Below are positions 3,037-30,649 of a DNA stretch of 34,303 nt, piece by piece. Source of the DNA: Jimgerdemannia flammicorona (lineage: Eukaryota); contig RBNJ01000278.1 of assembly GCA_003990765.1 (NCBI GenBank), positions 1 through 34,303 on the forward strand, read 5' to 3'. Every line of letters begins with the position of its first letter. The stretch's first letter is position 1. The position numbers and the translations under genes were made by a program. Below the pieces are notes generated by a model that was not told the DNA's origin, searched no databases, and saw only the letters and a program-made list of their open reading frames with translations.

Positions 3037-3252
3037 GGCTAGTTGAGAGATAACTCTGTCTCTCAATCTACACTATTATATATCTGTTCTCTTTAAATAC
3101 AGACCTCTTATATCTAGTCTTAAACAGATATAACATCTAATATCTAGAGTTCAGAGTTGTAGATTTTCTTACCCTCTTTAAGACTAGTTAAGAGTAGCTC
3201 TGTCTCTTAATCTATACTATCATATATCTGTTCTCTCTAGAGACAAACCTCT
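3037..3252 (+). repeat. ~72-bp direct repeat, two copies 144 bp apart (3037-3108 and 3181-3252), inside eroded TE DNA
   Basis: ctctgtctctcaatctacactattatatatctgttctct versus ctctgtctcttaatctatactatcatatatctgttctct. Confidence 0.8.
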
Positions 3253-3829
3253 TCAGGTATACTGAATCTATAATTAGAGACTTAGCAGTATCAGCTTTTT
3301 ATTATAATATTTAAGATAATTTTAATTAGATATACTCTAATTTGACAATTATTCTCTTCTATTATTAGTATACTCAGTATTATAACTAATAGTTTTACTC
3401 TAGAAGAAAATAATTTCTGTGAAATTTTATTTAAACTATAACTTATACTTACTACTATACTTAGAAAAACTACTATACATAACTAAAGACTATTAACTAA
3501 ACTTATTCTAGCTACTTTATAAAAACAATATAAAGATATTTCTGAATTTTTATATATATATTCTTTATTTAAGAGACTCTGTAAGAAACTTTCTAAAATT
3601 CTGAGCAGTGTGGTTTGAAGGAGCTATAGTACTTTTAGTTTCTGACTAGCTTAGCTTTAACTAGACAATAGATCTATAATTGAATCTAGTAGTTTTTAAT
3701 AGTATATATTATAGATAAATCAGAGCTATCTTTTGGAAACTGTTCTTTTAGATATTATTAATATATAAATATTCAATATTTTTATTACTGGTATTAATTT
3801 TTTAGAGTAGTGAGAAAGATTCTTAAAAG

Positions 3830-4195
3830 TAGTATTCTTAAATAAATTAAATTAATTCAAATCAAATTGAGATCTAATTCAATTCAATTAAATTTAATTT
3901 AATTTATAATATATATTTATCCCAAATTTAAAATATAATAACTTAATAGAAATATATCTAAATTTAATATTCTTTATTATACTAGATTCTCTATTATAAG
4001 ATATATTAAATAAGCTAAAATTCATTAAACTTAGTTATTGAATTTTGAAAAATTAGATTTAAATTAGACTTCAAATTAAATTAAGTCTTAATTTAAATTG
4101 AATTGAATTGAATTGACTCTTAATTTGATTTGAATATTTCAAATTAAATCAAATTGAAGATAAATTTAATTTAATTTAATTTATTCTAAGTATTA
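3830..4195. mobile_element. Non-autonomous hAT-like MITE with TIRs and AATTG/CAATT subterminal repeats
   Basis: Left end tagtattcttaaataaattaaattaa; reverse complement of right end taatacttagaataaattaaattaa. Inner inverted match attcaaatcaaattragrnnnaattcaattcaatt. Flanks cttaaaag (3822-3829) and cttaatag (4196-4203) give a 7/8 match for an 8-bp TSD, the hAT-typical length. Confidence 0.7.
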
Positions 4196-4661: not shown

Positions 4662-6700
4662 ATGGTAACCAACAGACAATCTGAGGTATATACTAGACAG
4701 GGTGGCCTAAGCACATTCAACTGGCAGTATGTAGGAAGAGGCTCTGGTCTGGGGGGGGGGGGTATGGGGGGACTACTAGCTGGTAGATGTGGAAGGGGAG
4801 GAGATAGTGATAGAGGACAGGAGTCTGAGGGGGCAAGCTTTGCAGAGATGGTAAAGGAGAGATAGCAGACATCTGGACTAGAGAGATAGCTGAGGAAAAT
4901 CAAAGAGATGGAGAAGACAGCTGTTCATAAGGAAGTAGTTCTTAGTAGTGGAGACAGTGGAGCTGAGGGTATAGTAGCTGGGGTGAATATGATGGCTAAT
5001 GGTGATAGGACTGTCAATCTGGAAAAAAATCCAGATGTGACTGCTGATGGTGTGGCTGAGCAGTGGGGGCTTAGAGGGCAGGGAGATTTGGCAGATAGTG
5101 TGATGGACCTAGTAGTGGCCCCATTACTCAAAAAATCGATCTTGGTATTCATGATTATACTATACTTCTGGAGCCTAGTAGTGATGGTAAAAATGGTACT
5201 GGGGTTCATTGCTAAGTAGGTGGCTGGAGTAGTATCAGTAAAGTTTCTGAAGGAATTGGAGGAAGTGGAGGTGGGCTTTGAGGAGACTGAGCCTTTGGAG
5301 GAGATACTGAAGGTTAGTTTGATTATTGAGAAGGTATGTATCTCTATGGTATATTATCTGAGATGGGACACCAGGGTAGTACAACTACTGGTGAAAGGAG
5401 TATCTATAGTGATAGCAGTAAAGATGAGAAGGAGAGTTGAGGAGATCATGGTAGAGTATAATGAGGTAGTAGATATCAGATTCAGGGTCTGGGAGGGAAC
5501 CTTACTTAGGACAGAGGATGTTGATATGTAGATTCAGCTGGTAGGGAAGAAAGCTACCAGGAAGATAAGAAACTGGCCTTCAGTGATAGTCTGAGGGACA
5601 ATCTTGTATAAGGTAACAAGGGTAAAGGGGAGTAAGGAGGAGGAGGAGGACTTATTGGAAGTACTGGAAGAGCTGAGTGATATGGTGGAGTGGTAGGTGA
5701 AGGCTTGGAAGGCTTTTGTAGAGTTGACACACTTGAAGATAGTGGATGGGAAGTGAATTTAAGTAGATAAGAGGTAGTGAGAAAGAGCTCAGAGATATAA
5801 GCATTAGAAGGAACTGCTGGCTAAGCTAGAAAGTAGATCACAGAAGGATGCAGGTAGAATGGTAGAGAGGGGGGGTGCCAAAGTGAGTGTCTGGGCCAGC
5901 AAGGATGGCAAGAGTATAGGGAAGGAGATAGGAGAGGACAGGGAAGTGACTGGCAATGATCCATATACTGATGGTATGTTTGAGATCTGGGAGGAGACCT
6001 GGGAGAGATTGCCTACCCCTACTTTTCTTATCAGGAGAGGTCTGACTTCCCAAAGCAGAGTGGTAGAGGATGTGCCAATATGGGGGGCCCAGCAAGTACA
6101 ATTTGGAGTTTCTGAGATAGCAAATGGAAGACAAGTAGTAATGGTTGGAGAGAAGAAATTAGTAGATATCCTAGAGATATGAGATGAGTCTATAAGTACC
6201 AGAGCTGACACCATAATGTTGGATAGAGGGAGGCCAGCAACTCCTGGGGGGAAGGAGGTGGAGAACCTACTTTGAATGTGCAGGATGATGAATAATCTGG
6301 TGGCTGAGGAGTTGGGAGAGGTGGACTTGAGAGTAATGAGTGATGAGCATTGAACATAGATCCTGCAGGAGGATGGGGTGAAGTTGGCATTGAAGGCAGA
6401 AATCCTTGTAGTATATCTGAAGGAGAAAGAATATGAGGTGGATAAGGAGTGGGAAGCAAAGCTGGCAGGTATTTCTGAATACTGCTGGACCAAGCATTAT
6501 GGATTGTAGCTCTGGCAGAAGGCCTGCCTAGAGTATTGAGAGAAGTTTGAGAAGAAGGCAGATGAGAAGATAAATGAGCTATTGGCTGGATTGAAGGCTC
6601 AGAGGACTGAAGAGGAGAAGGTGACTACAGAATATAATCTGAACTTGATACAGAAAGAGATGAATATAGAGCAGTAGAGATAAACTGGATAATACACTAT
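4662..6700 (+). pseudogene. LINE ORF1 remnant (nucleic-acid binding/coiled-coil protein)
   Basis: First ATG 89 bp inside the 5' TSD. Chain of broken plus-strand ORFs (4662, 4908, 5220, 5859) and an E/K-rich coiled-coil-like end at ~6380-6690. Assigned by position upstream of ORF2. Confidence 0.7.
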
Positions 6701-6708
6701 ATTTCATT

Positions 6709-9700
6709 ATGAATAGTACAACTAACATTTTCTCTTTGAACATGAATGGGTTACTGATCACTTCTCAATATAGGAATACTTTTACTTGGCTAAAAGGATT
6801 GGAGGCCAATCTCTTTATCTTACAGGATATCAGATGTGAGGATGATCTGAATAGACTGGAATGGATGAAGGAATGGGGAGATGAGGCAGTTTGGAAGGGC
6901 AAGGTTGGGATTCTGGTCTTGAAAGGCAGAGGGGAGATATGGAACATGAGGAGCTAGAGAGATAGATTGGTCTGGGGAGAGTGGATATGTACAGGTTGGG
7001 AGCTAATCACAGTGGGCTTCTGTTACTGCTCTGCTGTATGGAGTGGGTATGTGGATTGGGTGAAGAGTCTACAGGAGAGTGGGGTTCTTACAGAGACTGG
7101 GGTAGATATACTTGGTGGAGACTTCAATATGGTCTGGGATATACTGATGGATAGAACAGATGGCAGATGGGGAGCTAAAAGTAGGAGTGGAGGGCTGACA
7201 GCATGGGAGGATGTGGAAAGGCTAAGTATTCTAGTAGATACTGGTAGGGAGTATTGGGGGGATAGGAGGATATATACACACTAGGCAGGGGGCCTGGGGA
7301 TGAGGATTGACTAGATGTTGATGGCCAGCTACTGGGGCTTAGATGTTTGAAAGTCACTAGAGGTAGAATGGTGTCCTTGGTCAGATCATTGGGAGCTATT
7401 AGGGCAGGGGCATTTTGGGGGGAGTGGGGATGGGCCTGGACATTAACACCTCAATTTCTCTTTATTAGATGACAGGGTCTGATAGGAGAAATGAGCTGAG
7501 GACATTTAACTAAGGGTGGAGAGCTGGAGGCAAGAAGGTGCCCCAGTTGGTGTTTGGTGGATGAGGATGAAAGAGATGGCCAGAGTCTACTGGAGTGAGG
7601 CAGACAGGGAGGCTGAGAAGTAGAGGAGATGATGGGTGAGATGGGCTTCTGTTAGACTGACTAGACTCTTAGAGGATTGGGCAGGGCTAGTGATAGTGGA
7701 GAGGGGAGAGGACTGGAGATTAATGAGGGTGAAAATAGAGGTTGGAGAATTACAACAGATACTGTGGGATGAGAAAGAGGTAAGGGGGCAGAGCCTGGCA
7801 GTATAGCTTCATTGGCAGGGTTTGGAGGAAGGGAAGAGGCCCTTTAAGTATCTCTCAAAGGCCCTTCAGGTGAGAAGGATACAGCAAAAATAGGAGGGGG
7901 TGCTTAACTCTGATAGTATACTGGTACATGGTATACAAGACATTCTTAGTTCATTAAAGGAGCAATGGAGTGGATTGTAGAGTGAGGAGGAGGGTGGGAC
8001 AGATGCTGCTACTATTGACTATGTATTGGAGAATTAGCACCCTCCACAAGTAGATGGGCTGAGTGACTTGGTATTGCTGATACAAGAGAAAGAGATCCAC
8101 CAGATTCTTGCCACAATAATCTTGGGTACAGCACCTGGGGAGAATGGTCTGCTCTGGGACTTCTGGAAGAAGATAGTGGGGGTCTCAGGAGTACTGAGTA
8201 AGATGATAGCATTGTGTGACTTTATATTACAGATAGGGAGGTGGGTGGGAGAGCAGGATCTGGAGCTGGTGACATTACTTTACAAGAATAAAGAGAGGTA
8301 AGAGGACTGGAAGAACTGGTAGCTGATTATACTACTAGATATGAACAGAAAGTTGGTAACTAAGGTGGTAGTCATAAGGCTACAGAAGGTGGCCCAGCAA
8401 GTCTTGGGTGTTGAGTAGAGGGGCTTTGTAGAAGGCCAGCTCATTAGAGATGACACAGCTTGGGTATATGAAGTTATTGAAGAGGCATAAGCTTGTGGAC
8501 TAGATGGACAACTGGTCTTCCTAGACCAGGAGAAGACTTATGACTGAGTGTGGTGAGTCTGGCTAGTGAAAGTATTGGATAGGACTGAGGTACTGTACCA
8601 GTTCCAGTCAGCAATGATCAGCCTACTAGAAGGGAGTAGGGCTGCACTCATATGTAATAGACATAGAGGGGTATCATTTCCTCTAGATAGGGGTGTACCT
8701 CAGGAGGATCTATTATCCCCCATTCTATATACCCTTTTTCTGGAGTCTCTAATAGATAGAATCAGGAGGAAGATAGTGGGGTTCTCCATCTTTGGGATTG
8801 AGTGGAAAGTTGGGGCCTTTGCTGATGATATGGTGGTTGGTCTGGGGTCTATCACTGATGTTGAGAAGCTCAAGAAGATGGTGGAGTAGTATGAGGAGAA
8901 CTCTGGAACTAAACTTAATTGGTATAAGTATGAAACAATAGTATTGGGCAATGACCTGATGGGAGGAGATATTATTGGAACAATTATCCATATTGGTGAG
9001 GCAGTGTGGTACTTGGGTATTTATTTATCAGTATATGGGTCAGTACTATCTAGACTTTAGTGAGAGTAGAGGGTTGGAATCTGGGGGGAGGCCCTGCAGA
9101 GCTGGGGGGGTTACTAATTGTCTCTAGTAGGGTGTATCTTGATTTTGAACATTTATTGGCTGCTGAAGTTATGATATCTGGCTTACTATCTAGACTTCCC
9201 AGCCTGGGTAGAAGTGATTGATGAAGCTGGCCAAGAGGTGGATCTGGGCTGGAAGAAGGAGTCAGATCAGTTAAGAGGTCTTATCTTTACTAGTGGAAAG
9301 AGGAGGGCTTGGACTGGTTGACTTTCCAAGAAGACTACACTGTTTGAGAGCATGGTGGTTGAAGAGGGCAGTAGAGTTGAGTGGGAGCAGATAGGTCTCC
9401 CTGTTGCAGAAGGTCTGAGAGATGAGGTCCTCATCAAGAGGCTTGACAGAAGATCTCTTATCATTGATTGGGCTTTAGAACACTGCATAATTGCAATATA
9501 AAGGCTTCTGATGGGGAGTAGTAGAGGGGGCACACTGCATTGAAATTCATTGGTAGAGTAATGATGGAGAGATAGCTTGGGACCCAATAATGTAGAGGTG
9601 GGACAGAGTATTGCTGGGAGGCATTCTCTTAATTGAATTCAACATTAGTGATGGGATAGATTGCCAAAGGGGACAAGGTCAGGATCTGTGGCCTAGTGGA

Positions 9701-10330
9701 TAGCAGGGAGTAGATATTAGAGAAGAGTAGAACTAACATGGTATATAGGCCTGAAGTGCTGAGGTGAGGAAATAGATACTGCTGAAGTACTGGGTGGTCT
9801 GGTGGCACATGCTGAGGAGGAATGTTATGCTCAACTTCCACTCAGATCACCTTATCAAGGGGGGTTGCTTCAACTATAAGGAGTGCCACAATATCAGGCA
9901 GGAAGGAGGATATGTGTAGATGTCTGAATATTAGCTAGGGGAGTATAAGGTACTTAGTGACTTTTGGTGGGCTATTGGAGACTGCTTGAAGGTAGTGTGT
10001 AGGAGTGATGGCACATAGAGTCAGTGGGAGGATTTGAGAGATAAACTGGTAGGGGGGATGGGAAAGGAGTAACTTACCTTAGGCTGGGTTTTGGTAATTT
10101 AGATGGAGCTGACCAGTCACTGGCTATTTGTTTTTGAAGATAAGAGGAGACTGGGCTTGGGGGACTGGTTATTGCATTAGTATATGAAAGACATCTTGAT
10201 GGACTGATGGCTTGGTTGGAGGCTGCAAGATAGTTGAAGACATCACTTAGTAGAGAAGATTTATAGGTAGAGTGAGAGAAGAGTGGAAGTAGTGGGTGAG
10301 AAGGTGGTCTTTATTTATGATGATGTAGAG
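6709..10330 (+). pseudogene. LINE ORF2 remnant: APE-type endonuclease (~6709-7400) plus reverse transcriptase (~8060-9030)
   Basis: IFSLNMNGL, LFILQD, ILGGDFN (7114), SDH (7381); APGENGL, NW*LI (=NWRPI, 8314), *RGFVEGQLI (=QxGFxxGRxI, 8416), LDQEKTYD*V (8521), GVPQEDLLSP (8692), AFADD (8815), YLG (9010). Many in-frame stops. 3' end approximate. Confidence 0.93.
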
Positions 10331-10409
10331 AGAGGCTCTCCTATGGGGATCAGGTAGTGGGGGAGATACTGTATACTTATTAATAGACTGATAATAAATA
10401 GTAGCATCT

Positions 10410-10465
<56 letters not shown>

Positions 10466-11172
10466 TACTTAAAACTCAAATGATACAAATTCTGACAAAT
10501 ATTTATAAGGAAGTATTTATATTTTAGTAAGCAGAATTATATAGTAAGACTAGGGCTAGAACTAGGCTTTATATATATATCTACTAATTATATATTATTA
10601 TTTATAGAAAAAATATACTATTATATTACTCTAATAAGTAATTTTAAGATAAAAACTAGATAAGATTGGTATAAAAAATATGAGACAGTGATCATGAAGA
10701 TAGTATTACTCTTCTTTACAACTTTTTGCTAAGTGTGGATACAAACTCTCTTTTTTAGTCTATTCTTTAATAATTTGAAGTTCTTTATTAGTAATCTGAG
10801 AGTCTGACTATAAATAATTCTGCTATAATATCTCAAAAATCTGCTATGAATCTTTCTAGAATTAATAGAGATTAGTTAAGTTAAACTCAGTCCAAAGTAT
10901 ACTTTTGGTTTAGTGGATTTGACTTTGAGTAAGATATTGTCAAAATTAGTAATATATTCTTTGAATACTATATTAGTTTACTAATATATATTGATAAGAA
11001 TATCACTGATTTTACTCTAAATAGTAAAATATAATAAATAATATACTTCAAAGTCTAGTAGCTTATTTTATAATCTTATATGGTTTTGATATATTATTGA
11101 AATCTGATATACATATCTGAGTTTTCACTCTAATCAATCTTACAAATTAACTGTTCTAAGTAATAGTGAGAT

Positions 11173-11709
11173 TAGTGCTCTGAATGAGTCAATTTAAATT
11201 AATTTAAAGTGGCTTATAGATAGTATAATTTGATATATCAACATTATTGTTTTAATTTCCAAATTAGATAATTAAATATTTATATGTATTAATAACTTGA
11301 TAAAAAAATCATCCAATTTTGATAATTATAATATCTTTTGAAAGTTCTTAATATAATCTTTCTAATGATATCAAGAATATTAAAATCAGATAATATATTA
11401 CTGAGTTATTAAGAAAAACATCTATTTTATCAATTTTGAAAATTTCTTTAAAAGAATATTTTTATTGATAACTTGACAATATATTATTCAATTTCAACAT
11501 TCTTAGTATCATTAGAAAGATATCTTTAAGGGCTTTTAAATAATACCATAATCATCAAAATTAGATAATATTTTATCAAGTTATTAATATAAACATTTTA
11601 TTATCTAATTGAAAATTAAAACAATGATATTGATATGTCAAATTTATACTATCTATAAGCTACTTTGAATTGATTAAAATCAATTTAAATTGACTTATTC
11701 AGAGTACTA
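11173..11709. mobile_element. ~537-bp foldback/MITE: near-complete palindrome with ~245-bp arms
   Basis: tagtgctctgaatgagtcaatttaaatt at the left end and aatttaaattgacttattcagagtacta at the right. Internal pairs such as gcttatagatagtataa/ttatactatctataagc and tctttctaatgata/tatcattagaaaga. No TSD recognised. Confidence 0.85.
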
Positions 11710-12842
11710 CTATATATCTTTTATCATATATATTATATTGTCTTCTTTGAGCTTAGAATATTCTTTTGGTAAAGTTATCTTTTATAGACTATGTCTTTGT
11801 CAGTTTTATATATATTAATATATTCTTGAATATAACTAATAAGGTTATATAAATAATTATAAGACTATAGCTTGATTACTATGTTAGAATACTTGAGCTC
11901 TATTGTTATATCTTTTTTACCCTCAGCATTATTACTGTCTTCACTATCTTTATCTTTATTTTTATCTTTACTTTTATCTTCAAGATTAAAGATAAATGTT
12001 GTTTTTACTATTGTTGATGTAGTTGTTATCAAGATTGTAATAGTAAAATGTATAAAATATAAGATTACTAATATATAGATATATATATATACTTTTCAAC
12101 TATTATTACTCTTAAAGTATTAATATAGTTATATATATATACCTTTTGATAGCAAATAACTTATATTAGTTGAAGTACTAATTGTGGTAATCTTTTTTTA
12201 TAATTTTACTATATGTTCTATTTTCTTAGTTAGGGTTTTTTTTTATAGAGACCTCTTTTCTTGGTCCTGGGTTTGATAAATTATAGTGGTGGAGGAAGAG
12301 GTGAAAGATTACTATCATCAGAGAGCTCTTACTGTAGTTTTTTTTACTGTATATTCTGTCTTGATGAGATTCTTCTGATAGAGACCTCACTTTCTCTTAG
12401 AATTGATAGATTGCTATAATAGTAGAGGAAAATCATCATTATCACTGATGGAGATATCAATGTTGAGATCAAGAGAATCATTTCTTTATAAGACAGGTAA
12501 TATTGAATGACTGGGCAACATAGAGGATTCTTTTCTGCTGCTCAGCAGTTTCTGAATGAACTTCATTTAGCAGGTGTGTGGTGAAAAATAAAATCACTTA
12601 ATTAGTATTATTAGTATATACTGTTTTATTCCAACCAATAGCTTTCAGATTACAGGAACCTAAAGTTAATATTTCAAATTTCGCCCCCAAATTTAAAATA
12701 TTTCAAATTTCGGTGATGTCTCCATTATTTTCCCTTAATGTATTGAAAAAATGGGAATGCATCGACATTTTCTAGAAAATACACAAATGTAGCCCAGTCT
12801 CCTAGTGCAAATGGCAGCAGACACAATCTAATTACTTCAGTC

Positions 12843-15800
12843 TCAATATCCGGGAATGTTGGGCAATGCGTCCATGGGTGGAAACCTTCCGTCATTCTGC
12901 ACGTTGGTCAGTGTCCTCGTATCGAGTATGTTATGTTCCGAAATCGTGGACGGACGCAGCGACGACTCCATGCAGGGGCCAACGAGGTTGGAGGGGAAGA
13001 AGCCCCGCCCGCTCTCGCACTCGCCGTACCACCAGCCTGAAGGAGAGGCCCGGAAAACTTCAATCGTCTGTCCCCGCTTGAAGGTAAGGTGGTCCGATTG
13101 ATTCTTAGTTAGATTGTAATCTACCAAAGCCTCAACTACGTCGGGAATATTTTCAAACACTGTATTTAAAAGAGGTTTGGTGTGAGTGGCGATGGATATG
13201 AGATATTGCGGTCGGCTATGATGGAACCTACCATCCGAGAACTGCTTGGCCGGGCCCCACTTCAGGATTTGCTGCTGTTGAGCCTCAATATAATCCCCCT
13301 GATTTTTGTGGGCTGTTTTTCCGTAAGCCTCGATTTCAACATCGTGTGCTATCGTTCGGAGAGGAAGAAAAGAAAAATAACATAAGATATTAGTTTTGTT
13401 GAAACCAATTATAATAAACAATCGAGCGCATATATACCAATGTAGTAAACATAGGGCGGGAACCAGTCCGTCCTGTGCCGCTGCCAATAAACATCGAGAA
13501 GCGGGTGAAGCTCGATATCGGCCACAATTTGTACAAACAGGAGGAGCCAAAGGCGTTGTCCAGATTTGAGAGCTGTGTTGTAGACATTGTTGACTAGGGT
13601 AGTAATTTCGGGAAAGTGCGATTAGTTTGGGGTTTATTCCTCAGAGTCATCAAAATATTCATTAAATGCAAACTCCACACAGCCTTCGCAAAATAAATAG
13701 GGTATGTCTACTCACGAAGGGCGATGAGGACGTTCAAGAACAGGATGTTTGTTACCACGGCAAAGATAACCATCACGCCCATGATGCTGGGGTCCGATTG
13801 GAATCTATGCGCATGTGTTGTAATATATAAGTCAATTAGCCAGGTGACGACAAGCACTGCTCTCTACCCTAACAACTTTTTGTCTCCCGTTCCCACCCGA
13901 AAAAGGTGCAACACGAAATAAACAAATAAACTTACATTGCCATCGTTGCATAGTTTTGGGATGTGAAAAAGAAAACATTACCCAAGACCGTTTTGAAGTC
14001 CTGATAGAAATTATCGCCAGATGGATCGAACGGAAAAGCACTCAAGCTGACATTTTCATTGCCAATGGTGCCATTAATAATGTTAAAAGCCGTGGTATTT
14101 GGGCTGGAATGCTTCAGGTGTTCATAGAAGGCCTGTGCAAAAGCTAAAAAGGCCATCGCAAGCACGATCAGGAAAGGGACCATCTTTTTGATGATCTTTG
14201 CATGCGGATTAAAATCGGATTCATCATTAAAAATAGGTGTCAATTCTTGAAGGAATGATTTCGGTGCAAGTCTGTCAAGTATCATACCTCGCTTATTACG
14301 GCAACAAAGATTCCAATAGGTTTAAAAACACGGAGCAGCATCATCTATAAGAGGAGAAAACTCGAGTTTGTTCTGGGTATTCAAAAACAAAAAACAAAAA
14401 AAGAAAAGAAAATGGGCCAAAAGTACCGCATAGAAACACACTCACCAAGCGAAACCAGACCAGAAGCACACTGGTTGGGCGGAGAAGAATTGGCATGGGG
14501 GCACCAGACACGAGATAAATCACGTATACAATTGGTAGGATGAATGCACCGAGCTCGAAAAGATTGGATAATGTAACAATGTATGCTCGGAAACGATGGT
14601 AGCATTTTAACAACTCCATAACGATGGACACGGCCGCCATCCCACAAACGACCACAGAATACCGTTTCTGCACTTCGGATAGTTGGTTGTCTTTGGGGGC
14701 TTCCGTTTCAAGTAACATTGTGAAGAATGTATAGTAGACAAGATACAATGCGAACATCGCGAAGAACCTCGTGCGAGCGAATGCTCGCCATTTCTAGAAT
14801 AGACAAAGGACGATCTAAGGACCACTGGAACACACTAGGGAGCGCAGCTTGTACGTGTACTTACTTGGTATACAACGGCCTCCAAAACCGGTTCCGCAAT
14901 CTCAACAACTTTTCGCTCAGCCGTTTTTCCGGCAATGCGGGCAAATGTACTCCTTCTAGTTCCTTCGTAGGAGCATAAATTGAGAAAAGGAACGACGCAG
15001 ACATGCGCAGGCCTCAGCCGAGGCTCGAACATTGGAAACCATTTCCTCAACTGCTTCAGTGACAACTCTGCCGAATACTTGAAACACCATCCGAATCCAT
15101 AGAGGAAAGCAGACCACGTATACGAGACGCTGCTGTTGGGGAATTCGACGTGGTTGGCGGGTTGAATAATCGGATATAAGTGGTTGTGGGGTGTCAAAAT
15201 CTCCATGTCGCGGTTTAAAAGACCTTCAGGCGAGCGTTTCTGACACAGAAAAATCGGTTTTTGGACATTGGGAAGGATGCCAACTTGGTAGGATAGAGCT
15301 CGCGCAATTTCTCCAACCAGCGCCGGGTTCTCATCCATCAAGTCTGGAATCTGCTGCTGGAGTAAGAGGCCGTACGCGGTTTCGCCACGTTGGATCTGGC
15401 GGATCATCCATCGAATAATCTTGCCCTCGACTACAGGGTCGCCCACGTAATCGAACAAGGTGTTTGGGATTTTGTCCGATTCGTAAATCCAGGAGAAGAT
15501 GCAACGGCGGTAATTTCGGTAGGTGGCAAAGACAGCATCGAGATCTTGAAAGTTGAAGAGATACAGAATGGGAGAGTGAAACAGGCGAATGTCGATGCGA
15601 GGAAACCGATGCCTTGGGATGTATTCAGCGAGAATCTGAATGATTTGAACCGTGAGGTATGTAAGGTCTTTGGTCTTGTGTGGTGGTGCCCACTTGATTC
15701 TCTTTTCCGTGATCATTCTCGAAAGTAGTAAGAAGTATCGGCAGCCACTGAATGCCTTTTGCTCTTGAGTTGATGTCCCCATGACAATTTCGTGATGTGT

Positions 15801-17635
15801 CTTGAATTCTGGTTGATCACCACTCTTCGGAGTAGTTACGCTCACGAACACTCTCACAGTTGCATTCTCTATGACAGCCTTCGTCTGGAGCTTGTTGATC
15901 GTGTTTGGCTGTTGTGCGCTGAGTCGACCTGGCTTGGGGATGCACCAGAAATCTTGAAGCTGGTAGTCGCATTCAATATTCAGTCGCGACCACAGCTGCA
16001 CGGTCATGACCGTAACGACAAGGACGGCGCCTTCCTTGGTCACTGCAAAATGGCATGGTCCACGGAAAGGCTCATCTTCGATGAACGGCTGAAACGTAAA
16101 ACTTTTCGGTTCACAAACTGGTGGTTTCAACGCACTCGTCACGCAGCAGATATAGAAATACTGATCTTTGTCATCTTCAACTTTCATTAACCAATCAGCG
16201 CCTTCGTAATTTACCCTCCAGTTTTCCTCCGGCTTATCTGGCTTCGATTCAGATGCCGAGATCCCCTCTTCCGCTTGACTTTCATCTGACGGTCCAGGTA
16301 CCAGCGATTTTGTCACGATCCCCCCTTCCGCTCCTTCTGCTTGACTAAGGCAGTAGTGCTTTTGACTGTGGAGCCAACTTTCCTTTGTTTGTTTGACTGG
16401 ATCCTTGAGTAGTGAGCCTGTGTTGACGTCGTAGACATGGATTCCCTCAGAAGCTACGATGATGAGTTTGTCGCCTGCGTCGTGGAAGATTAACTTTTGG
16501 GGTTTTATCTTGGCCTTCCATCGCATAATTTCGAGTCCGGTCTTTGTGAGCAGTATATGCACGGTTATGTATCGACTTCCCAGCACATAGAAATTAGAGT
16601 CGAATTAGTGAAGAAACGGCAAAAACAAAAATCAAAACAAATAATACATAAGAATAAACATAAATTAACAAAATACCTATCGATAACAGTTTTACAAAAG
16701 TTTGAAAGAACAGCGAACCGGGATCCATCGGATGACAGAGCAAAACGGGACCGCCATCGGGAATCCATAGGAGCAATGTTGCGCAACATCAACTCGCGAA
16801 GCTGGTACGAATCCTTGTGAAGCTGCGGGATGGACTGATACATGAGTGATAAGCGGTCCATTTTTCGATGTAGGGCTGTGACATTGTAATCGAGGTCAAG
16901 AGATCGGACGATGTTGCAAATGTCGAAGTATATTGTACGGGTGACGGTAAGATCTGGCAGGTGATACACTCGCAGGTAAGGCGGGCAACAATGGATCATG
17001 CTTTCGCTGCTGAGGAGATTATCATCACCAAAGAAAACGGTGCCGCTGCGCAGTTTGAGTTCCTGTATCTGGCCATCTGTACGTCGCCCTTCCTCGACAC
17101 TTCTGGGATCTTGCGAGGCAGGAGGACGGTTGGTGTCTGTATCGCCAGCGTTACTGAGCTTCCTGACGATGGACACAAAATTGTCTTCCTTACGGGGCGC
17201 AAGCCAGTCACCTTCGGCACACCAACGTTTGTAGGTGTATAGGATTTGGCCATTCATCACCGGCTTGTCGAGATCATCGTAGTCATCATTGTGCGGATTT
17301 TTCCTGGGTATAAATGACACAGCGCAGATGTCTCCCGAGTTGGCCACGGTGACGGACATGTTTACGGGCTCGCCAGTTTGGAGGATTTTGTGAATGTCGA
17401 TTTTTGTCTCGTACATAGCGGCTTTGTTTTCGAGCGTTGTCTGTTTGCCACCGTCGGGGGCCCGCCAGACCCGAACCACAACTTGTCCACCTTTTTGGTT
17501 CAGCGAAGCTACGAAATTGCCATTACTTGACATTTCAATAGACAGGATGTCACCTTCGCTCTGTGGAGGATTCAATATCGTGTCGCTTGACAGGGATTGC
17601 AGTTCGGTGCCGTACTCATTCGAGTCAGTCATCAT
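12843..17635 (-). CDS. TRP-like (transient receptor potential) 6-TM cation channel with long, possibly WD40/beta-propeller-like N-terminus and C-terminal SH3 domain; ~1361 aa, 8 exons
   Basis: Exons (minus): 17635-16677, 16575-14865, 14793-14446, 14344-14288, 14195-13936, 13804-13716, 13593-13438, 13348-12843. All introns are GT-AG with matching phases; total 4086 nt with no internal stop. Motifs: pre-S1 VCVVPFLNLCSY...PVLEAVVYQKWRAFAR, S4-S5 linker LLRVFKPIGIFV, S5 MVPFLIVLAMAFLAFAQAFY, pore FKTVLGNVFFFTSQNY, S6 ILFLNVLIALLNNVY, TRP-helix-like RLWLLLFVQIVADIEL, WQRHRTDWFPPYVYY. Start at the first ATG (MMTDS); the ORF track's 17668 start is TTG. Confidence 0.9.
12981..13139 (-). other. SH3 domain within the last exon of the TRP-like gene
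   Basis: VVEALVDYNLTKNQSDHLTFKRGQTIEVFRASPSGWWYGECESGRGFFPSNLV matches SH3 hallmarks (ALYDY, LxFxxGxxI, GWWxG, GxFPxNYV). Confidence 0.92.
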
Positions 17636-17760
17636 TGAGGTTTGGAGCTTGTTGCGGATACTAGGCAATGGTAGGTTAAGGGTGAGGTGCTGTTCAGCGG
17701 ATACGATACAGCTGAAAGACGTCGAAAGTGGGGCTTTTATTTATCTATTAGGTTGGCCCC

Positions 17761-17763
<3 letters not shown>

Positions 17764-17803
<40 letters not shown>

Positions 17804-17846
17804 CGGGTTTACTTTTTTGCCTTTTTTTTTTTTTTTTTTTTTTTTT
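17764..17846. promoter_or_regulatory. Two poly(dA:dT) tracts (T38 at 17764-17801, T25 at 17822-17846), 130-210 bp upstream of the TRP gene ATG
   Basis: Tracts seen directly. A nucleosome-depleting promoter role is inferred from general fungal knowledge; homopolymer lengths may be affected by sequencing error. Confidence 0.45.
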
Positions 17847-18899: not shown

Positions 18900-20990
18900 T
18901 ACGGTAATTGTTTATCTGAGAGTCACTCGCATTCTCGCTGCCGAGTTTCTTTCCTCCTATGCAGTTTCTTGTGCGATTTGCCGATGTGCGAGTTTCGGGC
19001 TTCGAAAATTATAATCGATTGCTTTTGGACTTACTGCCTATCGGGAGGGTGGCGGAAGAATCAGGCGGGGGCTGGTCGGTGTAGGAGTCCCTTATAAGAG
19101 ACCCGTTCTCGCCCTGGACGCGGTGGTTATGCGTTGTAGAGAATAAGAACGAAGATCGCCCTCGGCGGGGAGAACTCAAGAGCACGGAGAGGGAGATGGG
19201 GATGGGGATGGGATGGGGATGGGGATGGGAATGGGGATGGGGATGGGGATGGGAATGGGGATGGGGATGAGGATGGATGGAATGGATGGCGATGCGGCGA
19301 GTTGAGTAGAGTCGTTGGCATAGACGACGTCTCGCGGAGCCCATTCAAAAGGCGGTTGGGTTGATGTCGGTTGTCGAAACATCAATGGGCGGCTGAATAA
19401 CGATATCGGTTGAAGCCTCGACATGTTGGCTGGTACGGCGGGGGGTGCTGTGCTGTAGTTGAAGGGGTTGAAGGGTGGGTATGGCGAGTGGTGCTGTCGT
19501 TTTTGTAGTCGAAGGGTTGGGAACAGTTAGTAGGTTGGTAAATTATTCCTCTCCCTAATCCCAAAAAAACAAAAGCGCCATGGCAGTGGTTTAGTCCAGG
19601 GTTTCTGGTCCGTTTAGTGACGACGTCCGCCTCCACATTTCCTTATCAAACCTTATCTGCAGATCCCAATTCCCATGGTCCATCACTCCTTCGACGACTG
19701 GCGGTAACCATGTCTGTTCGCTTCTGATTCGTGACATCTTGATAGCAGGATGAGCTACCCCAGTACGTCTACCAATCGTCTCGACCACGGACGTCAACCA
19801 GAATGACGGAAGGTCCAAACGGGTACCTGAACTTTCGGACATAGGTAAGTGCCTCTTACTTGGGTGAAAATGAGTCCCATATAGTGAGGTGCACCAGGAA
19901 TCTTGCCAAAACATTATTTCCGCCACCGCTAGAGGTTTTAGGGAAGGGTTTATTGTTTGGAGAGAGGTTAGCGTCAGTTATTTCGGGTCTGCGTGGTCGT
20001 TGGGTTGACCTTTTTTTCGATATCCATGGTGGTTAACTCAGTATTGACGTCCGTATTGACAGGGATTTCGGGCTCTTGCACACTGACTTCCTCTTCCTCT
20101 TCCTTGGGTGGAGTATGGTTTGCGAACTGTCTCCATGACTAACGAGTGTTCTTGGCTGGGGGGCGGCTGTCCACCTATTGAATGATTGCGTGCTGATCGT
20201 TTCTTCGTCGTCGAAATGTCGTGCAGCTGGTCTTGTCTAGGTCAGCAACCAGTCCCGTATTGACTGATGGCTCCGCTTCTATAGTGAACGCCTGCGTGCC
20301 GACCTCTTCGTCTTCTTCGTCGTCGTCATTCTCTCCGTCCGAGGTATTGCTTGTCCTGCTGTCAAGGCCTCCGCCTATCGTCTCGGCACCTCTACGATGA
20401 TCTCTGATTCCTTGCGCACGATTTTCATGCTATGGGTTTGAAACGGACGGGCATCGTCGTCGGGTAAGCTTTGATACGCGGTGGGATCAGAATTATAGAG
20501 GTAGCCCTGATTAGGCAAACGGTTTGCGCCGGTGACCGGGTTGGGCTCTCGTGTTTGCCGGACAGAGTCTAGCAATATTCCCTTCTTCGCATTCATAGTA
20601 CGGCGGACATTGTCGTTCGTTGCTGTTGTATCTGTTTGTTCATTGCCACGCTTACTGCCTTTCATACTATCTCCGTTATCTCCTCATTGCTAGACACGGG
20701 CATCATTGCCAAGGCGGCCATCGTGATTGGTGTAGTCGTATCGATCGGAATTTGCCCTTGTCCCTGCATCAACGGAGCTGCCAAAGGGCTCGTCGAAAAA
20801 TTCGGCTGCGGCATTGGGTAAGGATTGGCGGGCTGCTGGTGTGCCTTGCTGTCCAAATGCTCGAGCGAAGTGTGGAGACACTGTGGGGACGAACAGGGTT
20901 GGGCGGAAGATTCTTATTTGACCGACGTAGTCCTCCCAGGCCCCTTTGCGCTGCGCATAGGACATGTCGAATCCTTCGTTATTCATCCTG
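18900..20990 (-). pseudogene. Disrupted gene(s) of unknown function in duplication copy A (acidic/low-complexity N-terminal part, His-Pro-rich C-terminal part)
   Basis: Fragmented minus ORFs (20690-21187, 20662-20856, 20375-20665, 19591-19926, 19009-19424) share peptides with copy B (DEEVGTQAFTxEAEPSVNTGLVA, FWQxxWxTSLYG, PTSTQPP, NGLRETSSMP) but switch frames with no clean intron model. Confidence 0.55.
19195..19290. repeat. (GGGGAT)n hexanucleotide microsatellite, encoding His-Pro repeats on the minus strand
   Basis: Seen directly; imperfect, with 5-bp units that shift the frame. Confidence 0.9.
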
Positions 20991-22079: not shown

Positions 22080-23545
22080 GATGCTTCGAAAAAATATAAA
22101 TATACCACATTTTTCCAGAAAATTCGTAAACGCAACCCAGCCCCCAGTGTAAATGACGACCTGAGGATCAATTGGACCATTTTCCCTTCAAGCGGGGACG
22201 GGCCTTCTCAGATTGGTGGTACGGCGAGTGCAAGAGCAGGCAGGAACTTCTCCCTCTAACGTTTTTGGTTCCTGCACGGAGGAATCGTAATATCTCTCCA
22301 TTTTTGTAGGCTGTTTTCCGTAAGCTTCGATTTCAGCATCGTGCGCTATCGTTCGGAGAAAAAAAAAAAAAAAAACGTAAGATATCGGTTTTTCTCGAAG
22401 TCAATTACAATAAAATCAGGCGTATACATACTGATGTAGTAAACATAAGGTGGGAACCAGACCACCCTGGCATGCCGCTGACAATAAACATCTAGAAACG
22501 GGTGAAGCTTAGGAGTCAAAGACGTTGTCCAGATTCGAGAGACATGTTGCAGACATTGTTGACTAGGGTAGTAATTTTGGAAAAGTGCGATTAGTTTGGG
22601 GTTTGTTCTTCAAAGCAATCCGAGTATTCACTTGATTTCATTAAATGCAATAAATGGGGTCTGTCTACTTAGGAAGTGCGTTAAAGAGCAGGGTGTTGGT
22701 TACCACGGCAAATATAAACATCGCGCCCGTGATGCTGGGTTCCGATTGGGTGTCTAAGCGCATGTGTTGTGAAGTGAGGTGCATATATAAATCACTTGGC
22801 CAGATGACGACAAGAATCCCCCCCACACACACATGGAAACACACTCACCAGCCGAAACCAGCCTAAAAGCGCACTTGCTGGACGGAGAAGAATTGGCATG
22901 GGTTCACCAAGTTTGAGGTCGCTTACGTATACGATTGGTAGGATGAATGTACCGAGCTCGAAGACATTGCATGGAGTGACAATGTATCCTCGGAACCATG
23001 GCAACTCTGTAACGATGAATAGGACTGCCATCCCGCGAACGACCCCAGAATACCATTTCTGCTCTTCGGACAGTTGATTTCTTTGGGTTCTTTCTTTTCG
23101 AGTTCGAGTAACATTGCGAAGAGCGCGCAGTAGACAAAATAGAACGTGAACATCACGAAGAACTTGTGTGAGCGGATGTTTGACATTTCAAAATTTCAGT
23201 CGCCATACTTCCCGAGGATCACTGGAGTACACAAGTGAGCGTAGCTTGTACTTATACTTGGTATACGACGGCCTCCCAAACCGGTTCTGCAATCTCAACA
23301 CTTTTCACTCGGCCGTTCTCCGGGCAATGCGGACAAACGTACTCCCTCTAGTTCCTTCGTAGGAAAATGGATTGAGAAAAGAAACAACGCAGACGTCATC
23401 CGGGGCCTAAACATTGGAAACCATTCCCTCGGCCGTCTCTGCCAAATACTTGAAACACCACCCGAATCCACAGAGCAAAGCAGAAAACGCATACGAGACA
23501 CTGCTGTTGGAGAATTCGATGTGGTTGGTGAATTGAATCTCGACA
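22080..23545 (-). pseudogene. Truncated, rearranged pseudogene paralog of the TRP-SH3 gene (3' third, introns retained)
   Basis: Collinear similarity to ~12740-15170: NHIEFSNSSVSYAFSALLCGFGWCFKY, FFVMFTFYFVYCALFAMLLE, FELGTFILPIVYV...PMPILLRPASALLGWFRL, S6 exon at ~22670-22755. Frameshifts, loss of exons 4-5, inverted SH3 piece. Confidence 0.9.
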
Positions 23546-24789: not shown

Positions 24790-25560
24790 TGGTTCGGTAA
24801 TATTATCGCCCTCCTGGGCCCGTGTTCATAAGGAATATACCGTAAAGCTTTGGGCTTCGAACGGGACTAATTTGCCGGTGGACCGGGCGAAGGATTGGCC
24901 AGTGGGGCGGGCAAAAGCTTGGCCAATGGGGTGGACGAAAGCTTGGCCAGTGAGGTGGACGAAAGCTTTGGGCGAAAGCTTGGTAAGTGGGGTGGACGAA
25001 GGATTCGCCAGTGAGAAGGACGAAGGTTCGCCAGTGAGACGGACGAAGGATTGACCAGTGGGACGGACGAAGGGTTGGCCAGTGGGGTGGACGAAGGGGC
25101 AGATGAAGGATTGGCTAGTGGTGCGGACGAATGATGTGGGACGGACGAAGTATTGGCCAGTGTGGTGGACATAGGCTCTGAACCGGTATCAGCATCGGCG
25201 GTATTGGCAGCTGGAGGGATGAGTGATTGTTCATGATGTTATAATCTTGGATCTGCATGTAGCTTTATATACTCCACCAAGCCATATTCTTCCAAGAGAT
25301 TCATTATATGAAAGGTCCAAATTGCATAATTCTTTCCATTGAAGATAGAAATGGACCTTTTGGCTATATTTATGCTTACAATAGTAGAGACTGTATTTCT
25401 CATAATAGAGATATCTGTGGTTATAATAGGAACTGTATTTTCTATTACTGAGACCCTTATGCTTAGTATGTCTATATTGCTAGAGTTACTTATATTTTCT
25501 ATCTTAGAATATAGTATATGTTAAAGAGGTGTTTTTAGCCACTAACTGGGTCTCATAATA
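24790..25560 (-). pseudogene. Ty1/copia Gag-like N-terminal remnant, in frame with the PLANPSST repeats
   Basis: Manual translation of 25352-25266 gives ISIFNGKNYAIWTFHIMNLLEEYGLVEYI, matching the copia Gag N-terminal FxGxNYxxW..M..LL...L motif (DUF4219-like). One TAA (25239-25241) separates it from the repeat ORF. Confidence 0.6.
24867..25175 (-). repeat. 24-bp minisatellite (ggtggacgaaggattggccagtgg), about 11-12 degenerate units, encoding PLANPSST-like octapeptides
   Basis: Seen directly and in ORF 24867..25172. Confidence 0.9.
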
Positions 25561-30411: not shown

Positions 30412-30649
30412 AACGGGCGGCTATAATGATATCGGTATATAGAAGTCGAGACCAGGACAAAAACGTTGGCTGGTACGGTGAATTCTTCAATATGCTGTCG
30501 CCACGAAATCGTAAGACATATGTCCTGCCTATCAAGTCCTTTGTTCGGAACAGAACACGCATGATGACGCACTGCCAATTCCAGACATTCCAGACATTTC
30601 AGATCCCGACATAATTAATTATCTCCGCTGCCACGCCCTATTCTTCTGA

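What the first reader, a model, noticed from the sequence alone, without database searches (positions are those of the whole stretch)
12843..17635. TRP-like ion channel fused to a C-terminal SH3 domain
Seen: a phase-consistent 8-exon model joins a ~890-aa N-terminus (propeller-like starts ILSIEMSSNGNFVASL and FALSSDGSRFAVL), six TM segments with TRP-type S4-S5 linker, pore and S6, and a canonical SH3 in one frame. Known: characterised TRP families carry ankyrin repeats, MHR, Nudix or alpha-kinase modules, and yeast TRPY1/Yvc1 has none of these. I know no characterised TRP with a C-terminal SH3. A TM sensor plus cytoplasmic SH3 recalls the fungal osmosensor Sho1. Inference: the channel may directly recruit PxxP partners (MAPK, actin or endocytic machinery), coupling cation flux to signalling. 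The pseudogene paralog also carries SH3 DNA, so the fusion predates the duplication. The SH3 ends PSNLV rather than PSNYV, so ligand binding may be altered.
Basis: partly seen in the sequence, partly recalled or inferred. Interest (0 to 1): 0.85.

Follow-up and report, generated by a model that had tools for sequence, protein, structure and literature searches.

The report
Fungal TRP channel carrying SH3 domain
This is a real, spliced fungal gene for a TRP-type ion channel that ends in its own SH3 protein-docking domain, a combination found again in an Endogone fungus and not found in the papers searched, but whose function is untested.

Summary
On the minus strand, 17635-12843 is one gene. 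Contigs of two public runs carry the intron-less form at 7 of the 8 junctions. These contigs join the SH3 exon to the channel exons.

The SH3 is genuine (Pfam SH3_1, 43.9 bits against a cut-off of 22.9).

The membrane part has six hydrophobic segments. It carries 9 of the 12 published group-I TRP fingerprint residues at exact spacing, and a tenth plausibly. The S6/TRP-helix of its only full-length relative matches solved TRPV and TRPM channels: 53 of 57 PDB hits, best E 1.1e-4. No Pfam channel model reaches threshold on the separate exons.

The relative is a 1287-aa hypothetical protein of Endogone sp. at 42-48% identity, and it also ends in an SH3. The fusion is therefore old.

The 890-aa N-terminus has almost no relatives: 4 hits among 1.84 billion representatives. 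"Propeller-like" is unproven.

My searches of the papers found no TRP-SH3 fusion.

Verdict: a new variant of a known kind, with an inferred mechanism and moderate interest.

The parts
16677..17635 (-). Exon 1 (aa 1-319). Start codon at 17635. First part of the N-terminal cytosolic region.
   Evidence: The frame is open from the ATG. It aligns to Endogone P0001 from aa 29. There is no contig cover over 17488-17800, so the start is unverified.
14865..16575 (-). Exon 2 (aa 320-890). Main N-terminal cytosolic region with almost no relatives, beta-rich and then helical in a low-confidence model. It ends in the pre-S1 segment.
   Evidence: There are 4 hits among 1.84 billion representatives. Pfam finds nothing even at E 10, and the profile against PDB finds nothing. 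The AF2 model has pLDDT 36.5. The junction 14793/14865 is bridged in X1 and X2.
14446..14793 (-). Exon 3 (aa 891-1006). Pre-S1 Trp and S1 to most of S4.
   Evidence: Hydropathy peaks lie at 900-918, 936-954, 968-986 and 992-1010. W892, F900 and Y907 sit at the +8 and +15 spacing of the TRP fingerprint (PMC9242649). Ion_trans reaches only E 0.43. The Atlas neighbours are YVC1_C, Ion_trans and PKD_channel clusters.
14288..14344 (-). Exon 4 (aa 1007-1025). End of S4 and the S4-S5 linker, with G1017.
   Evidence: Junction 14344/14446 is bridged in X2, and 14195/14288 in X1 and X2. A Gly lies in the linker.
13936..14195 (-). Exon 5 (aa 1026-1111). S5, a turret with three N-x-S/T sequons, and the pore helix.
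   Evidence: The hydropathy peak is at 1030-1048. The sequons are at aa 1058, 1066 and 1073. Junction 13804/13936 is bridged in X1 (2 contigs) and X2.
13716..13804 (-). Exon 6 (aa 1112-1141). S6 with the N-x-L-I-A gate motif.
   Evidence: F1126, N1136, L1138, I1139 and A1140 sit at fingerprint spacing. The only PDB hit of this exon alone is TRPM5 S6 at E 8.8, not significant.
13438..13593 (-). Exon 7 (aa 1142-1193). TRP-domain helix with W1157, and the post-TRP segment.
   Evidence: W1157 lies 21 residues after N1136, across the splice junction. The equivalent region of the ortholog aligns to the S6 and TRP helix of solved TRPV and TRPM channels. Junctions 13593/13716 and 13348/13438 are bridged.
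13232..13348 (-). Exon 8 (aa 1194-1232). Linker between the channel and the SH3.
   Evidence: X1 record 1 (608 nt, 1 difference) joins 13232-13348 to 12706-13159. X2 record 8 (950 nt) runs from the start of the SH3 exon to the S5/pore exon.
12843..13159 (-). Exon 9 (aa 1233-1337 plus the stop). SH3 domain at 12981-13130 (aa 1243-1292), then a 45-aa tail ending in a Pro-rich motif. The 3' UTR extends at least to 12706.
   Evidence: Pfam SH3_1 1.8e-11, SH3_2 7.9e-10, SH3_9 1.1e-07. There are 177 PDB matches, the best being GRB2 at 9.5e-13. Residues invariant with the ortholog include Y1247, W1275, P1288 and an F-P...L-P..P tail pattern.
13160..13231 (-). Intron 8, 72 nt, in frame and free of stops.
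   Evidence: It is skipped in X1 (side 117) and in X2. It has GT..AG ends.
22161..23538 (-). Truncated pseudogene copy of aa 790-1204 with stops and deletions. The equivalents of exons 4-5 are missing. The SH3 fragment (22161-22281) is inverted relative to the rest.
   Evidence: blastn identities are 70-76%. tblastn shows in-frame stops, and the SH3 piece is in a plus-strand frame while the other pieces are in minus-strand frames.

Best explanation
The locus is an intact, spliced gene of an Endogonales-like fungus (Mucoromycota) that encodes one subunit of a group-I-type TRP cation channel.

Reading from the N-terminus:
- an 890-aa cytosolic region with almost no relatives;
- six membrane helices, with a probably glycosylated S5-pore turret;
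- an S6 gate of the N-x-L-I-A type;
- a TRP-domain helix with its conserved Trp;
- a linker of about 70 aa;
- a real SH3 domain;
- a 45-aa tail that contains prolines.

By analogy with solved TRP channels, four subunits should form the pore. That would place four SH3 domains under the membrane.

The most likely role of the SH3 is as a built-in adaptor. It would bind a proline-rich partner, in fungi most plausibly actin-patch, endocytic or polarity proteins. This would fix where the channel sits, or couple local cation or Ca2+ entry to that machinery.

Shown: the gene structure, the physical joining of the SH3 to the channel in contigs, the identity of the SH3, the TRP-type sequence signature, and conservation of the fusion in Endogone.

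Inferred: tetramer formation, ion conduction, SH3 ligand binding, and the identity of any partner.
For: Gene model: 9 exons, all introns GT..AG, one open frame of 1337 aa.

Splicing: the joined form is present in contigs of two runs at 7 of 8 junctions. One contig links the 3' UTR, the SH3 exon, the linker exon and 29 nt of the TRP-helix exon. Another links the start of the SH3 exon to the S5/pore exon.

SH3: Pfam scores are above the curated cut-offs. The domain matches 177 PDB sequences, with the GRB2 C-terminal SH3 best at 9.5e-13.

TRP type:
- There are six hydropathy peaks plus a post-S6 helix.
- Nine of the 12 GI-TRP fingerprint residues defined in PMC9242649 (passages read) sit at the exact spacing implied by rTRPV1 numbering: W892, F900, Y907, F1126, N1136, L1138, I1139, A1140 and W1157. 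G1017 in the S4-S5 linker is a plausible tenth. The paper states that 95% of TRPs have at least 9, while Kv and Nav channels have 3-7.
- The pore-S6-TRP-helix stretch of the ortholog gives 57 PDB matches at E<=10. Of these, 53 are TRP channels (Inactive 1.1e-4, TRPV3 0.017, Nanchung, TRPM2, TRPV1, TRPV4), aligned through S6 and the TRP-helix Trp.
- A profile that includes the window's own S6 and TRP-helix exons still finds Inactive at 6.3e-4. It is the only non-SH3 chain among the 60 shown.
- The Atlas neighbours of the S1-S4 exon and of the ortholog's pore region are YVC1_C, Ion_trans and PKD_channel clusters, with scores of 0.84-0.93.
- PF23317, which names YVC1_C, is precomputed on the ortholog.

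Conservation of the fusion: Endogone RUS22732.1 aligns at 42% over aa 29-888 and at 48% over aa 1032-1332, and has an SH3 at 1178-1226.

Topology: the three N-x-S/T sequons lie only in the S5-pore loop, which fits a cytosolic C-terminus.
Against: - No Pfam channel family reaches threshold. Ion_trans scores E 0.13-0.43 against a 25-bit cut-off, and my own scan did not recover YVC1_C.
- The window's TM exons taken singly find nothing in PDB or only a non-significant TRPM5 hit. The best TRP evidence therefore comes through the ortholog and through motif spacing.
- The spliced protein could not be given to the remote Pfam, PDB or folding tools, so no whole-domain test or fold was obtained.
- Both AF2 models were of low confidence, with pLDDT 36.5 and 50.0.
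- Two canonical ligand-contact aromatics of the SH3 are replaced: V1245, and L1291 in PSNLV.
- Among the differences listed for a roughly 92%-similar transcript in run X2, the SH3-plus-tail exon has 16 non-synonymous and 5 synonymous base changes. These include Y1247H, which alters the conserved Tyr of the SH3's ALYDY-type motif. The other exons have 4 non-synonymous and 14 synonymous changes. Only 40 of 247 differences were listed, so this sample is partial.
- Neither the model nor the ortholog contains a class I or class II SH3 ligand motif, and no partner is known.
- The library type of the two runs is not on record.
- The 5' end and intron 1 are not directly confirmed.
Confidence: 0.55

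Rival explanations
1. The SH3 works within the channel rather than as a recruiter. It would bind the conserved Pro-containing C-terminal tail of the same or a neighbouring subunit, or the N-terminal domain. This would act as an autoinhibitory latch or an assembly and gating element, comparable to the N-C contacts that shape the cytosolic skirt of other TRP channels.
For: The tail after the SH3 keeps an F-P...L-P..P pattern between the window and Endogone, although the rest of the tail diverges. The window ends in a PxxP at aa 1332. Neither protein has a class I or II motif elsewhere. The cytosolic domains of solved TRP channels commonly make inter-subunit contacts (general knowledge, not tested here).
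Against: The tail motif is not a canonical class I or II ligand. The AF2 model of SH3 plus tail was of low confidence (pLDDT 50.0, tail below 50) and shows no reliable docking. Only two sequences support the conservation.
Confidence: 0.25
2. The channel is real, but the SH3 is a weakly constrained appendage with little or no ligand-binding function. It would be a product of exon shuffling that has been kept by chance in a small lineage.
For: The C-terminal exon accumulates mostly non-synonymous changes in the X2 relative, with 7 non-synonymous against 3 synonymous inside the SH3, including Y1247H. V1245 and L1291 replace canonical aromatics. The family is tiny: 5 clusters in all.
Against: The SH3 is still recognised above Pfam cut-offs in both the window and Endogone, although the proteins are only 42-48% identical overall. 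W1275, Y1247, P1288 and the segment before the SH3 are invariant between them. The differences listed are a partial sample and may come from a paralog.
Confidence: 0.12
3. It is not a TRP-type channel. It would be some other 6-TM protein, or a gene-model artefact in which the SH3 belongs to a separate gene.
For: No Pfam channel family is above threshold. Single exons give no PDB hits. The run type is not on record.
Against: Contigs bridge every junction from S4 to the SH3 exon. Nine fingerprint residues sit at exact spacing, one pair of them across a splice junction. 53 of 57 PDB hits of the ortholog's pore region are TRP channels. The Endogone protein has the same order of parts.
Confidence: 0.05

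Closest known systems
Group-I TRP channels, in particular TRPV-type (Drosophila Inactive/Nanchung, TRPV1/3/4) and TRPM2
   Same: Both have a 6-TM layout, an S6 gate motif N-x-L-I-A, and a TRP-domain helix with its Trp 21 residues after the S6 Asn. Both also have the pre-S1 Trp and the S1 Phe and Tyr at fingerprint spacing.
   Different: Pfam detects no ankyrin repeats, MHR/SLOG, Nudix or kinase domain. The N-terminus has almost no relatives. A C-terminal SH3 is present. Similarity is confined to about 60 residues, at E around 1e-4.
Fungal TRPY1/Yvc1 (Pfam YVC1_C, LHD_TRPY1)
   Same: Both are fungal TRP-type channels. YVC1_C is the family precomputed on the Endogone ortholog, and it is common among the Atlas neighbours.
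   Different: LHD_TRPY1 was not detected, and my scans did not recover YVC1_C. This protein is about twice as long (recalled) and carries an SH3. From recall, Yvc1 has no SH3.
TRPW, the WD40-propeller TRP channels of choanoflagellates and filastereans (bioRxiv 10.64898/2026.06.15.732245; passages read)
   Same: Both are group-I TRP cores preceded by a large N-terminal region that may contain beta-propeller blades. The ortholog gives weak WD40-type Pfam hits at E around 1e-4, far below the cut-offs.
   Different: The window's own N-terminus gives no WD40 signal at all, and the fold failed. The passages I read do not mention an SH3 or fungal members. The phylogenetic relation was not tested.
Sho1, the fungal osmosensor (4 TM helices plus a C-terminal SH3 that binds the Pbs2 proline motif; recalled, not from a call)
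   Same: Both are fungal membrane proteins with a cytosolic C-terminal SH3.
   Different: Sho1 has four TM helices, no pore, and about a quarter of the length. No sequence relation beyond the SH3 fold was seen.
SH3-bearing auxiliary proteins of voltage-gated Ca2+ channels (the SH3-GK module of CaV-beta is recalled; STAC SH3 chains appear among the PDB SH3 hits)
   Same: In both cases an SH3 module is attached to a 6-TM-type cation channel complex.
   Different: There the SH3 is supplied in trans by a separate subunit. Here it is part of the pore-forming polypeptide.

Membership tests
TRP superfamily, group I | Six TM segments with a re-entrant pore loop between S5 and S6 | tested here: met
   Hydropathy peaks lie at 900-918, 936-954, 968-986, 992-1010, 1030-1048 and 1124-1142, with a long loop at 1049-1110.
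TRP superfamily, group I | [quoted passage not shown] | tested here: met
   Nine residues sit at exact spacing (W892, F900, Y907, F1126, N1136, L1138, I1139, A1140, W1157), plus G1017 in the linker. The two remaining aromatics (S5 and pore helix) are present within 1-2 positions, but the register is uncertain (definitions).
TRP superfamily, group I | Significant sequence similarity to solved TRP channels | tested here: met
   This was met through the ortholog: 53 of 57 PDB matches are TRP channels, the best at E 1.1e-4. The window-plus-ortholog profile finds Inactive at 6.3e-4. The window's exons taken singly find nothing significant.
TRP superfamily, group I | A Pfam channel model (Ion_trans, YVC1_C or PKD_channel) above its gathering score | tested here: not met
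   Ion_trans scores E 0.43 on exon 3 and 0.13-0.15 on the ortholog's pore region, at 10-12 bits against a 25-bit cut-off. Only exon-sized pieces could be scanned. PF23317 is listed as precomputed for the ortholog.
TRP superfamily, group I | Tetrameric cation-conducting pore | not testable with these tools
   The spliced protein could not be submitted for folding, and there is no electrophysiology.
TRPY1/Yvc1 | N-terminal linker helical domain (LHD_TRPY1) with a YVC1_C transmembrane domain | tested here: not met
   No Pfam family was found on exons 1-2 even at E 10. My scans did not recover YVC1_C.
TRPW (preprint) | N-terminal WD40 beta-propeller | tested here: inconclusive
   The ortholog has sub-threshold WD40-type hits (for example 22 bits against cut-offs of 110-305). 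The window has none. The AF2 model has pLDDT 36.5. The profile against PDB gives 0 hits.
TRPW (preprint) | Placement of the TM domain inside the TRPW clade | not tested
SH3 domain | Profile match above the curated threshold | tested here: met
   SH3_1 scores 43.9 bits against 22.9, SH3_2 38.7 against 21.8, and SH3_9 32 against 30.
SH3 domain | Intact canonical ligand-binding residues (ALYDY tyrosines, the WW Trp, the Pro and Tyr of P-x-x-Y) | tested here: inconclusive
   Y1247, W1275 and P1288 are kept and are invariant with the ortholog. V1245 and L1291 replace aromatics, where the ortholog has Phe at both positions.
Sho1 | Four TM helices followed by an SH3, about 370 aa | tested here: not met
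   This protein has six TM segments plus a pore loop and is 1337 aa long. The Sho1 features are recalled.

The most novel reading that the evidence does not exclude
This would be the first TRP-superfamily channel whose pore-forming subunit carries its own SH3. A tetramer would then be a four-armed scaffold that nucleates proline-rich actin, endocytic or polarity proteins exactly where cations enter. Together with its large, possibly propeller-containing N-terminus, it may be a fungal offshoot of the WD40-TRP (TRPW) lineage so far reported only from holozoans. That would move the origin of the lineage back to the opisthokont ancestor.
Probability: 0.25. Interest if true: 0.7.

Novelty: new variant of a known kind. 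Interest (0 to 1): 0.5.

Why it matters
TRP channels are known to be regulated by SH3-containing partners that bind proline motifs on the channel. Here the arrangement is reversed, because the channel brings the SH3 itself.

If the SH3 is functional, it offers a simple natural system for asking how a cation channel is wired to cytoskeletal or trafficking machinery. It would also give a handle, in the form of SH3 ligands, for finding the signalling partners of Ca2+ entry in early-diverging, mycorrhiza-related fungi, whose ion channels are essentially unstudied.

The finding also adds a lineage-restricted N-terminal domain of about 890 aa to the list of TRP cytosolic modules.

The limits are clear. 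The family is tiny (5 protein clusters found), the function is untested, and domain shuffling of SH3 modules is common in eukaryotes.

Tried and rejected
- Whole genome: none is held for this window.
- RNA evidence: no RNA holder is listed. The two runs laid are typed 'RNA?' by guess only.
- Word-index protein searches. The exon 2 query with 'longer' found only the Endogone protein. The ortholog's pore region found only itself. The S1-S4 exon with 'longer' found none of 72 candidates.
- Exhaustive HMMER with exon 2 found 4 fragments only. All of them stop at the end of exon 2, so no database protein supplies an intact TM domain. The cluster look-up gave no names except Endogone.
- Single exons against PDB gave no meaningful hits.
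- The A1 profile against PDB gave 0 hits.
- AF2 of exon 2 with 6 sequences gave pLDDT 36.5. AF2 of SH3 plus tail with 2 sequences gave pLDDT 50.0. Both are too poor for a fold search, so none was run.
- Metagenome scans. The alignment query was rejected for lack of conserved stretches. Exon 2 gave 78 pattern matches and no relative. The TRP-helix exon gave one locus, L001. This is a 65%-GC contig that shares only a 9-residue pattern, and I rejected it as spurious.
- Earlier notes of this scan held nothing on this genome or sequence. Two notes on algal Pkd2/Flc-like proteins are unrelated.
The whole N-terminus (exons 1 and 2 together) was therefore never folded as one unit.
- The spliced 1337-aa protein could not be handed to Pfam, PDB, Atlas or AF2, because only unjoined sequence may be submitted.
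- Complex prediction was not used. No binding pair was well enough defined.

Full report
**The gene.** The minus strand between 17635 and 12843 carries a chain of open frames. Read against the sequence, these frames join through eight GT..AG introns into one 4014-nt CDS of 1337 codons.

I laid the contigs of the two public runs that hold this stretch (the library type is not on record and 'RNA?' is a guess). They show the intron-less form at exactly the predicted places:
- 13159/13232, 13348/13438, 13593/13716, 13804/13936, 14195/14288 and 14793/14865 in both runs;
- 14344/14446 in X2 only, because X1 has no cover there.

All of these skips have CT..AC ends on the plus strand, which is GT..AG on the gene's strand. 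That is what spliced RNA gives. A processed DNA copy cannot be formally excluded.

X1 record 1 (608 nt, one difference) runs from the 3' UTR at 12706 through the whole SH3 exon and the linker exon into the TRP-helix exon. X2 record 8 (950 nt, from a copy about 90-97% alike) runs from the first 31 nt of the SH3 exon back to the S5/pore exon. The SH3 is therefore physically joined to the channel.

Intron 1 (16676-16576) is inferred. The resulting peptide has the same length as the Endogone protein at this point. Diverged copies in both runs join 16577 to 16688 or 16700 with a few replaced letters. However, one X1 contig with no differences continues 60 nt into the predicted intron. In addition, nothing covers 17488-17800, so the 5' end remains open.

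Its 8-exon, 1361-aa model differs from mine by 24 aa. That is the length of the 72-nt stretch 13231-13160, which is in frame and free of stops but is spliced out in both runs. The gene has 9 exons.

**The SH3.** The last exon scores above all three Pfam SH3 cut-offs, with SH3_1 at 43.9 bits against 22.9. It matches 177 PDB sequences, led by the GRB2 C-terminal SH3 at 9.5e-13.
- The domain is aa 1243-1292 (13130-12981).
- Kept, and invariant with the Endogone protein: Y1247, W1275 and P1288.
- Replaced: V1245 and L1291 stand where canonical SH3 domains have aromatic residues. Endogone has Phe at both positions.
- After the SH3 comes a 45-aa tail. Its only conserved feature is an F-P...L-P..P pattern at the very end.

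**The channel.** Hydropathy gives six segments (900-918, 936-954, 968-986, 992-1010, 1030-1048, 1124-1142) and a hydrophobic helix after S6. Three N-x-S/T sequons occur only in the S5-pore loop.

Evidence against, or neutral:
- Scanned exon by exon, no Pfam channel family reaches threshold. Ion_trans reaches E 0.43 on S1-S4 against the first part of the profile, and 0.13-0.15 on the ortholog's pore region against the last part.
- The exons taken singly find nothing meaningful in PDB.

Three lines of evidence nevertheless point the same way:
1. The pore-S6-TRP-helix stretch of the Endogone ortholog is 48% identical to the window over the whole C-terminal 300 aa. It gives 57 PDB matches at E<=10, and 53 of them are TRP channels. 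The best are Drosophila Inactive at 1.1e-4 and TRPV3 at 0.017. The alignment runs through S6 and the Trp of the TRP helix. A profile that also contains the window's own S6 and TRP-helix exons still finds Inactive at 6.3e-4, the only non-SH3 chain among the 60 shown.
2. The eLife study PMC9242649 (passages read) defines a 12-residue group-I TRP fingerprint by rTRPV1 positions. It reports at least 9 of the 12 in 95% of TRPs, against 3-7 in Kv and Nav channels. The window has W892, F900 and Y907 at spacings +8 and +15. It has F1126, N1136, L1138, I1139, A1140 and W1157 at spacings -10, 0, +2, +3, +4 and +21. It also has a Gly (G1017) in the S4-S5 linker. The +21 spacing crosses the exon 6/7 junction, which independently supports that splice.
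3. The language-model neighbours of the S1-S4 exon and of the ortholog's pore region are eukaryotic YVC1_C, Ion_trans and PKD_channel clusters, many of them from Mucoromycota, with scores of 0.84-0.93. I treat these as leads only. PF23317 (YVC1_C) is the family precomputed on the ortholog.

**Relatives.** The only full-length relative is RUS22732.1, a hypothetical protein of 1287 aa from Endogone sp. FLAS-F59071 (Endogonales, Mucoromycota).
- It is 42% identical over aa 29-888 and 48% over aa 1032-1332.
- It has an SH3 at 1178-1226.
- Its gene model evidently skips S1-S5.

An exhaustive HMMER search with exon 2 found only 4 further proteins among 1.84 billion representatives. All are unnamed fragments that stop where exon 2 stops. 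The fusion is therefore older than the split between this organism and Endogone, but the family is very small.

**The N-terminus.**
- Exons 1 and 2 give no Pfam match even at E 10.
- The six-sequence profile finds nothing in PDB.
- AF2 gave pLDDT 36.5.
- Only the Endogone protein shows weak WD40-type hits, at E around 1e-4 and far below the cut-offs.

'Propeller-like' therefore remains a lead. It matters because a June 2026 preprint (10.64898/2026.06.15.732245; passages read) names a TRPW clade of group-I TRP channels with N-terminal WD40 propellers in choanoflagellates and filastereans. The passages I read do not mention an SH3 or fungal members.

**The pseudogene.** 22161-23538 is a degraded copy of aa 790-1204, with stops and with the equivalents of exons 4-5 deleted. 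Its SH3 fragment (22161-22281) lies on the opposite strand to the rest. It agrees with an old fusion, but it is weaker evidence than the Endogone ortholog.

**Constraint on the SH3.** I classified the 39 coding differences listed for the X2 copy.
- The SH3-plus-tail exon has 16 non-synonymous and 5 synonymous base changes. Inside the SH3 the count is 7 against 3, and it includes Y1247H.
- The other exons have 4 non-synonymous and 14 synonymous changes.
- Only 40 of 247 differences were listed, and the copy may be a paralog.

On this partial sample the C-terminus evolves faster than the core.

**Mechanism.**
- Shown: a TRP-type pore-forming subunit with a covalently attached SH3.
- Inferred: four subunits form a cation channel with four cytosolic SH3 domains, which dock a proline-rich partner. 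This would localise the channel or couple ion entry to actin, endocytic or polarity machinery. My confidence in this full reading is about 0.55.
- Main rival (0.25): an internal latch or assembly role, acting through the conserved Pro-rich tail.
- Second rival (0.12): a weakly constrained, largely vestigial SH3.
- Third rival (0.05): a non-TRP protein or an artefactual model.

**Literature.** None of my searches returned a paper describing such a fusion:
- 'TRP channel' with 'SH3 domain', fungi and 'domain architecture';
- 'TRP channel' with 'C-terminal SH3 domain', 0 papers;
- TRP, SH3, 'ion channel' and 'early-diverging fungi';
- 'Ion_trans' with SH3;
- 'TRP channels' with WD40, fungi and TRPY1.

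PMC8778642 (passages read) notes only that the TRP-CC family is expanded in Glomeromycotina and Neocallimastigomycota. Subscription journals and InterPro architecture tables were not searchable here.

**Verdict.** This is a real and correctly spotted architecture, with a small correction to the gene model. It is a new variant of a known kind, a TRP channel with its own SH3. It is conserved in at least one other Endogonales-type fungus, and its function is untested.

Noticed in passing
window 18932-20779 versus 29934-31931 (and 33334-33418): A second duplicated segment, 81-91% identical, with copies about 11.0-11.15 kb apart. Its ORFs of 110-170 aa give no Pfam family. Together with the channel pseudogene, this points to a cluster of decaying segmental duplications.
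   Followed up: partly
window 5001-10000, ORF 8557-8886 (+): This is a degraded retroelement. A 110-aa ORF matches RVT_1 (E 5.9e-08). The surrounding 5 kb has a very strong GC skew of +0.35 to +0.53, so the plus strand is depleted of C.
   Followed up: partly
window 2001-4000, 11001-12000, 26001-28000: Blocks of very low GC (0.14-0.28) separate the gene-like segments, which have GC 0.43-0.52.
   Followed up: no
window 24871-25119: A tandem array with a 24-nt period, found as seven overlapping 69-nt copies at 61-100% identity. It lies just beyond the pseudogene.
   Followed up: no
window about 17750-17838 and 10393-10474: A long homopolymer run (T on the plus strand) lies directly upstream of the gene's start. 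It is scored as an inverted repeat with a complementary run at 10393-10474.
   Followed up: no
window 13125-13157: In both runs a contig matches only these 33 nt (the start of the SH3 exon) and continues on both sides with unrelated sequence. Depth here is the highest in X1, at 26. It may be another gene or paralog that shares the conserved segment just before the SH3.
   Followed up: no
window 13473-16330 (run X1): Besides near-identical contigs, run X1 holds contigs that are 90-95% alike and have small indels: +3 at 13473, -9 at 16330, and single-base gaps. This suggests at least one further expressed copy elsewhere in the same organism.
   Followed up: no
window 16577-16636: An X1 contig with no differences (record 6, 16284-16636) extends 60 nt into predicted intron 1. 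This could be intron retention, unspliced RNA or DNA carry-over.
   Followed up: no
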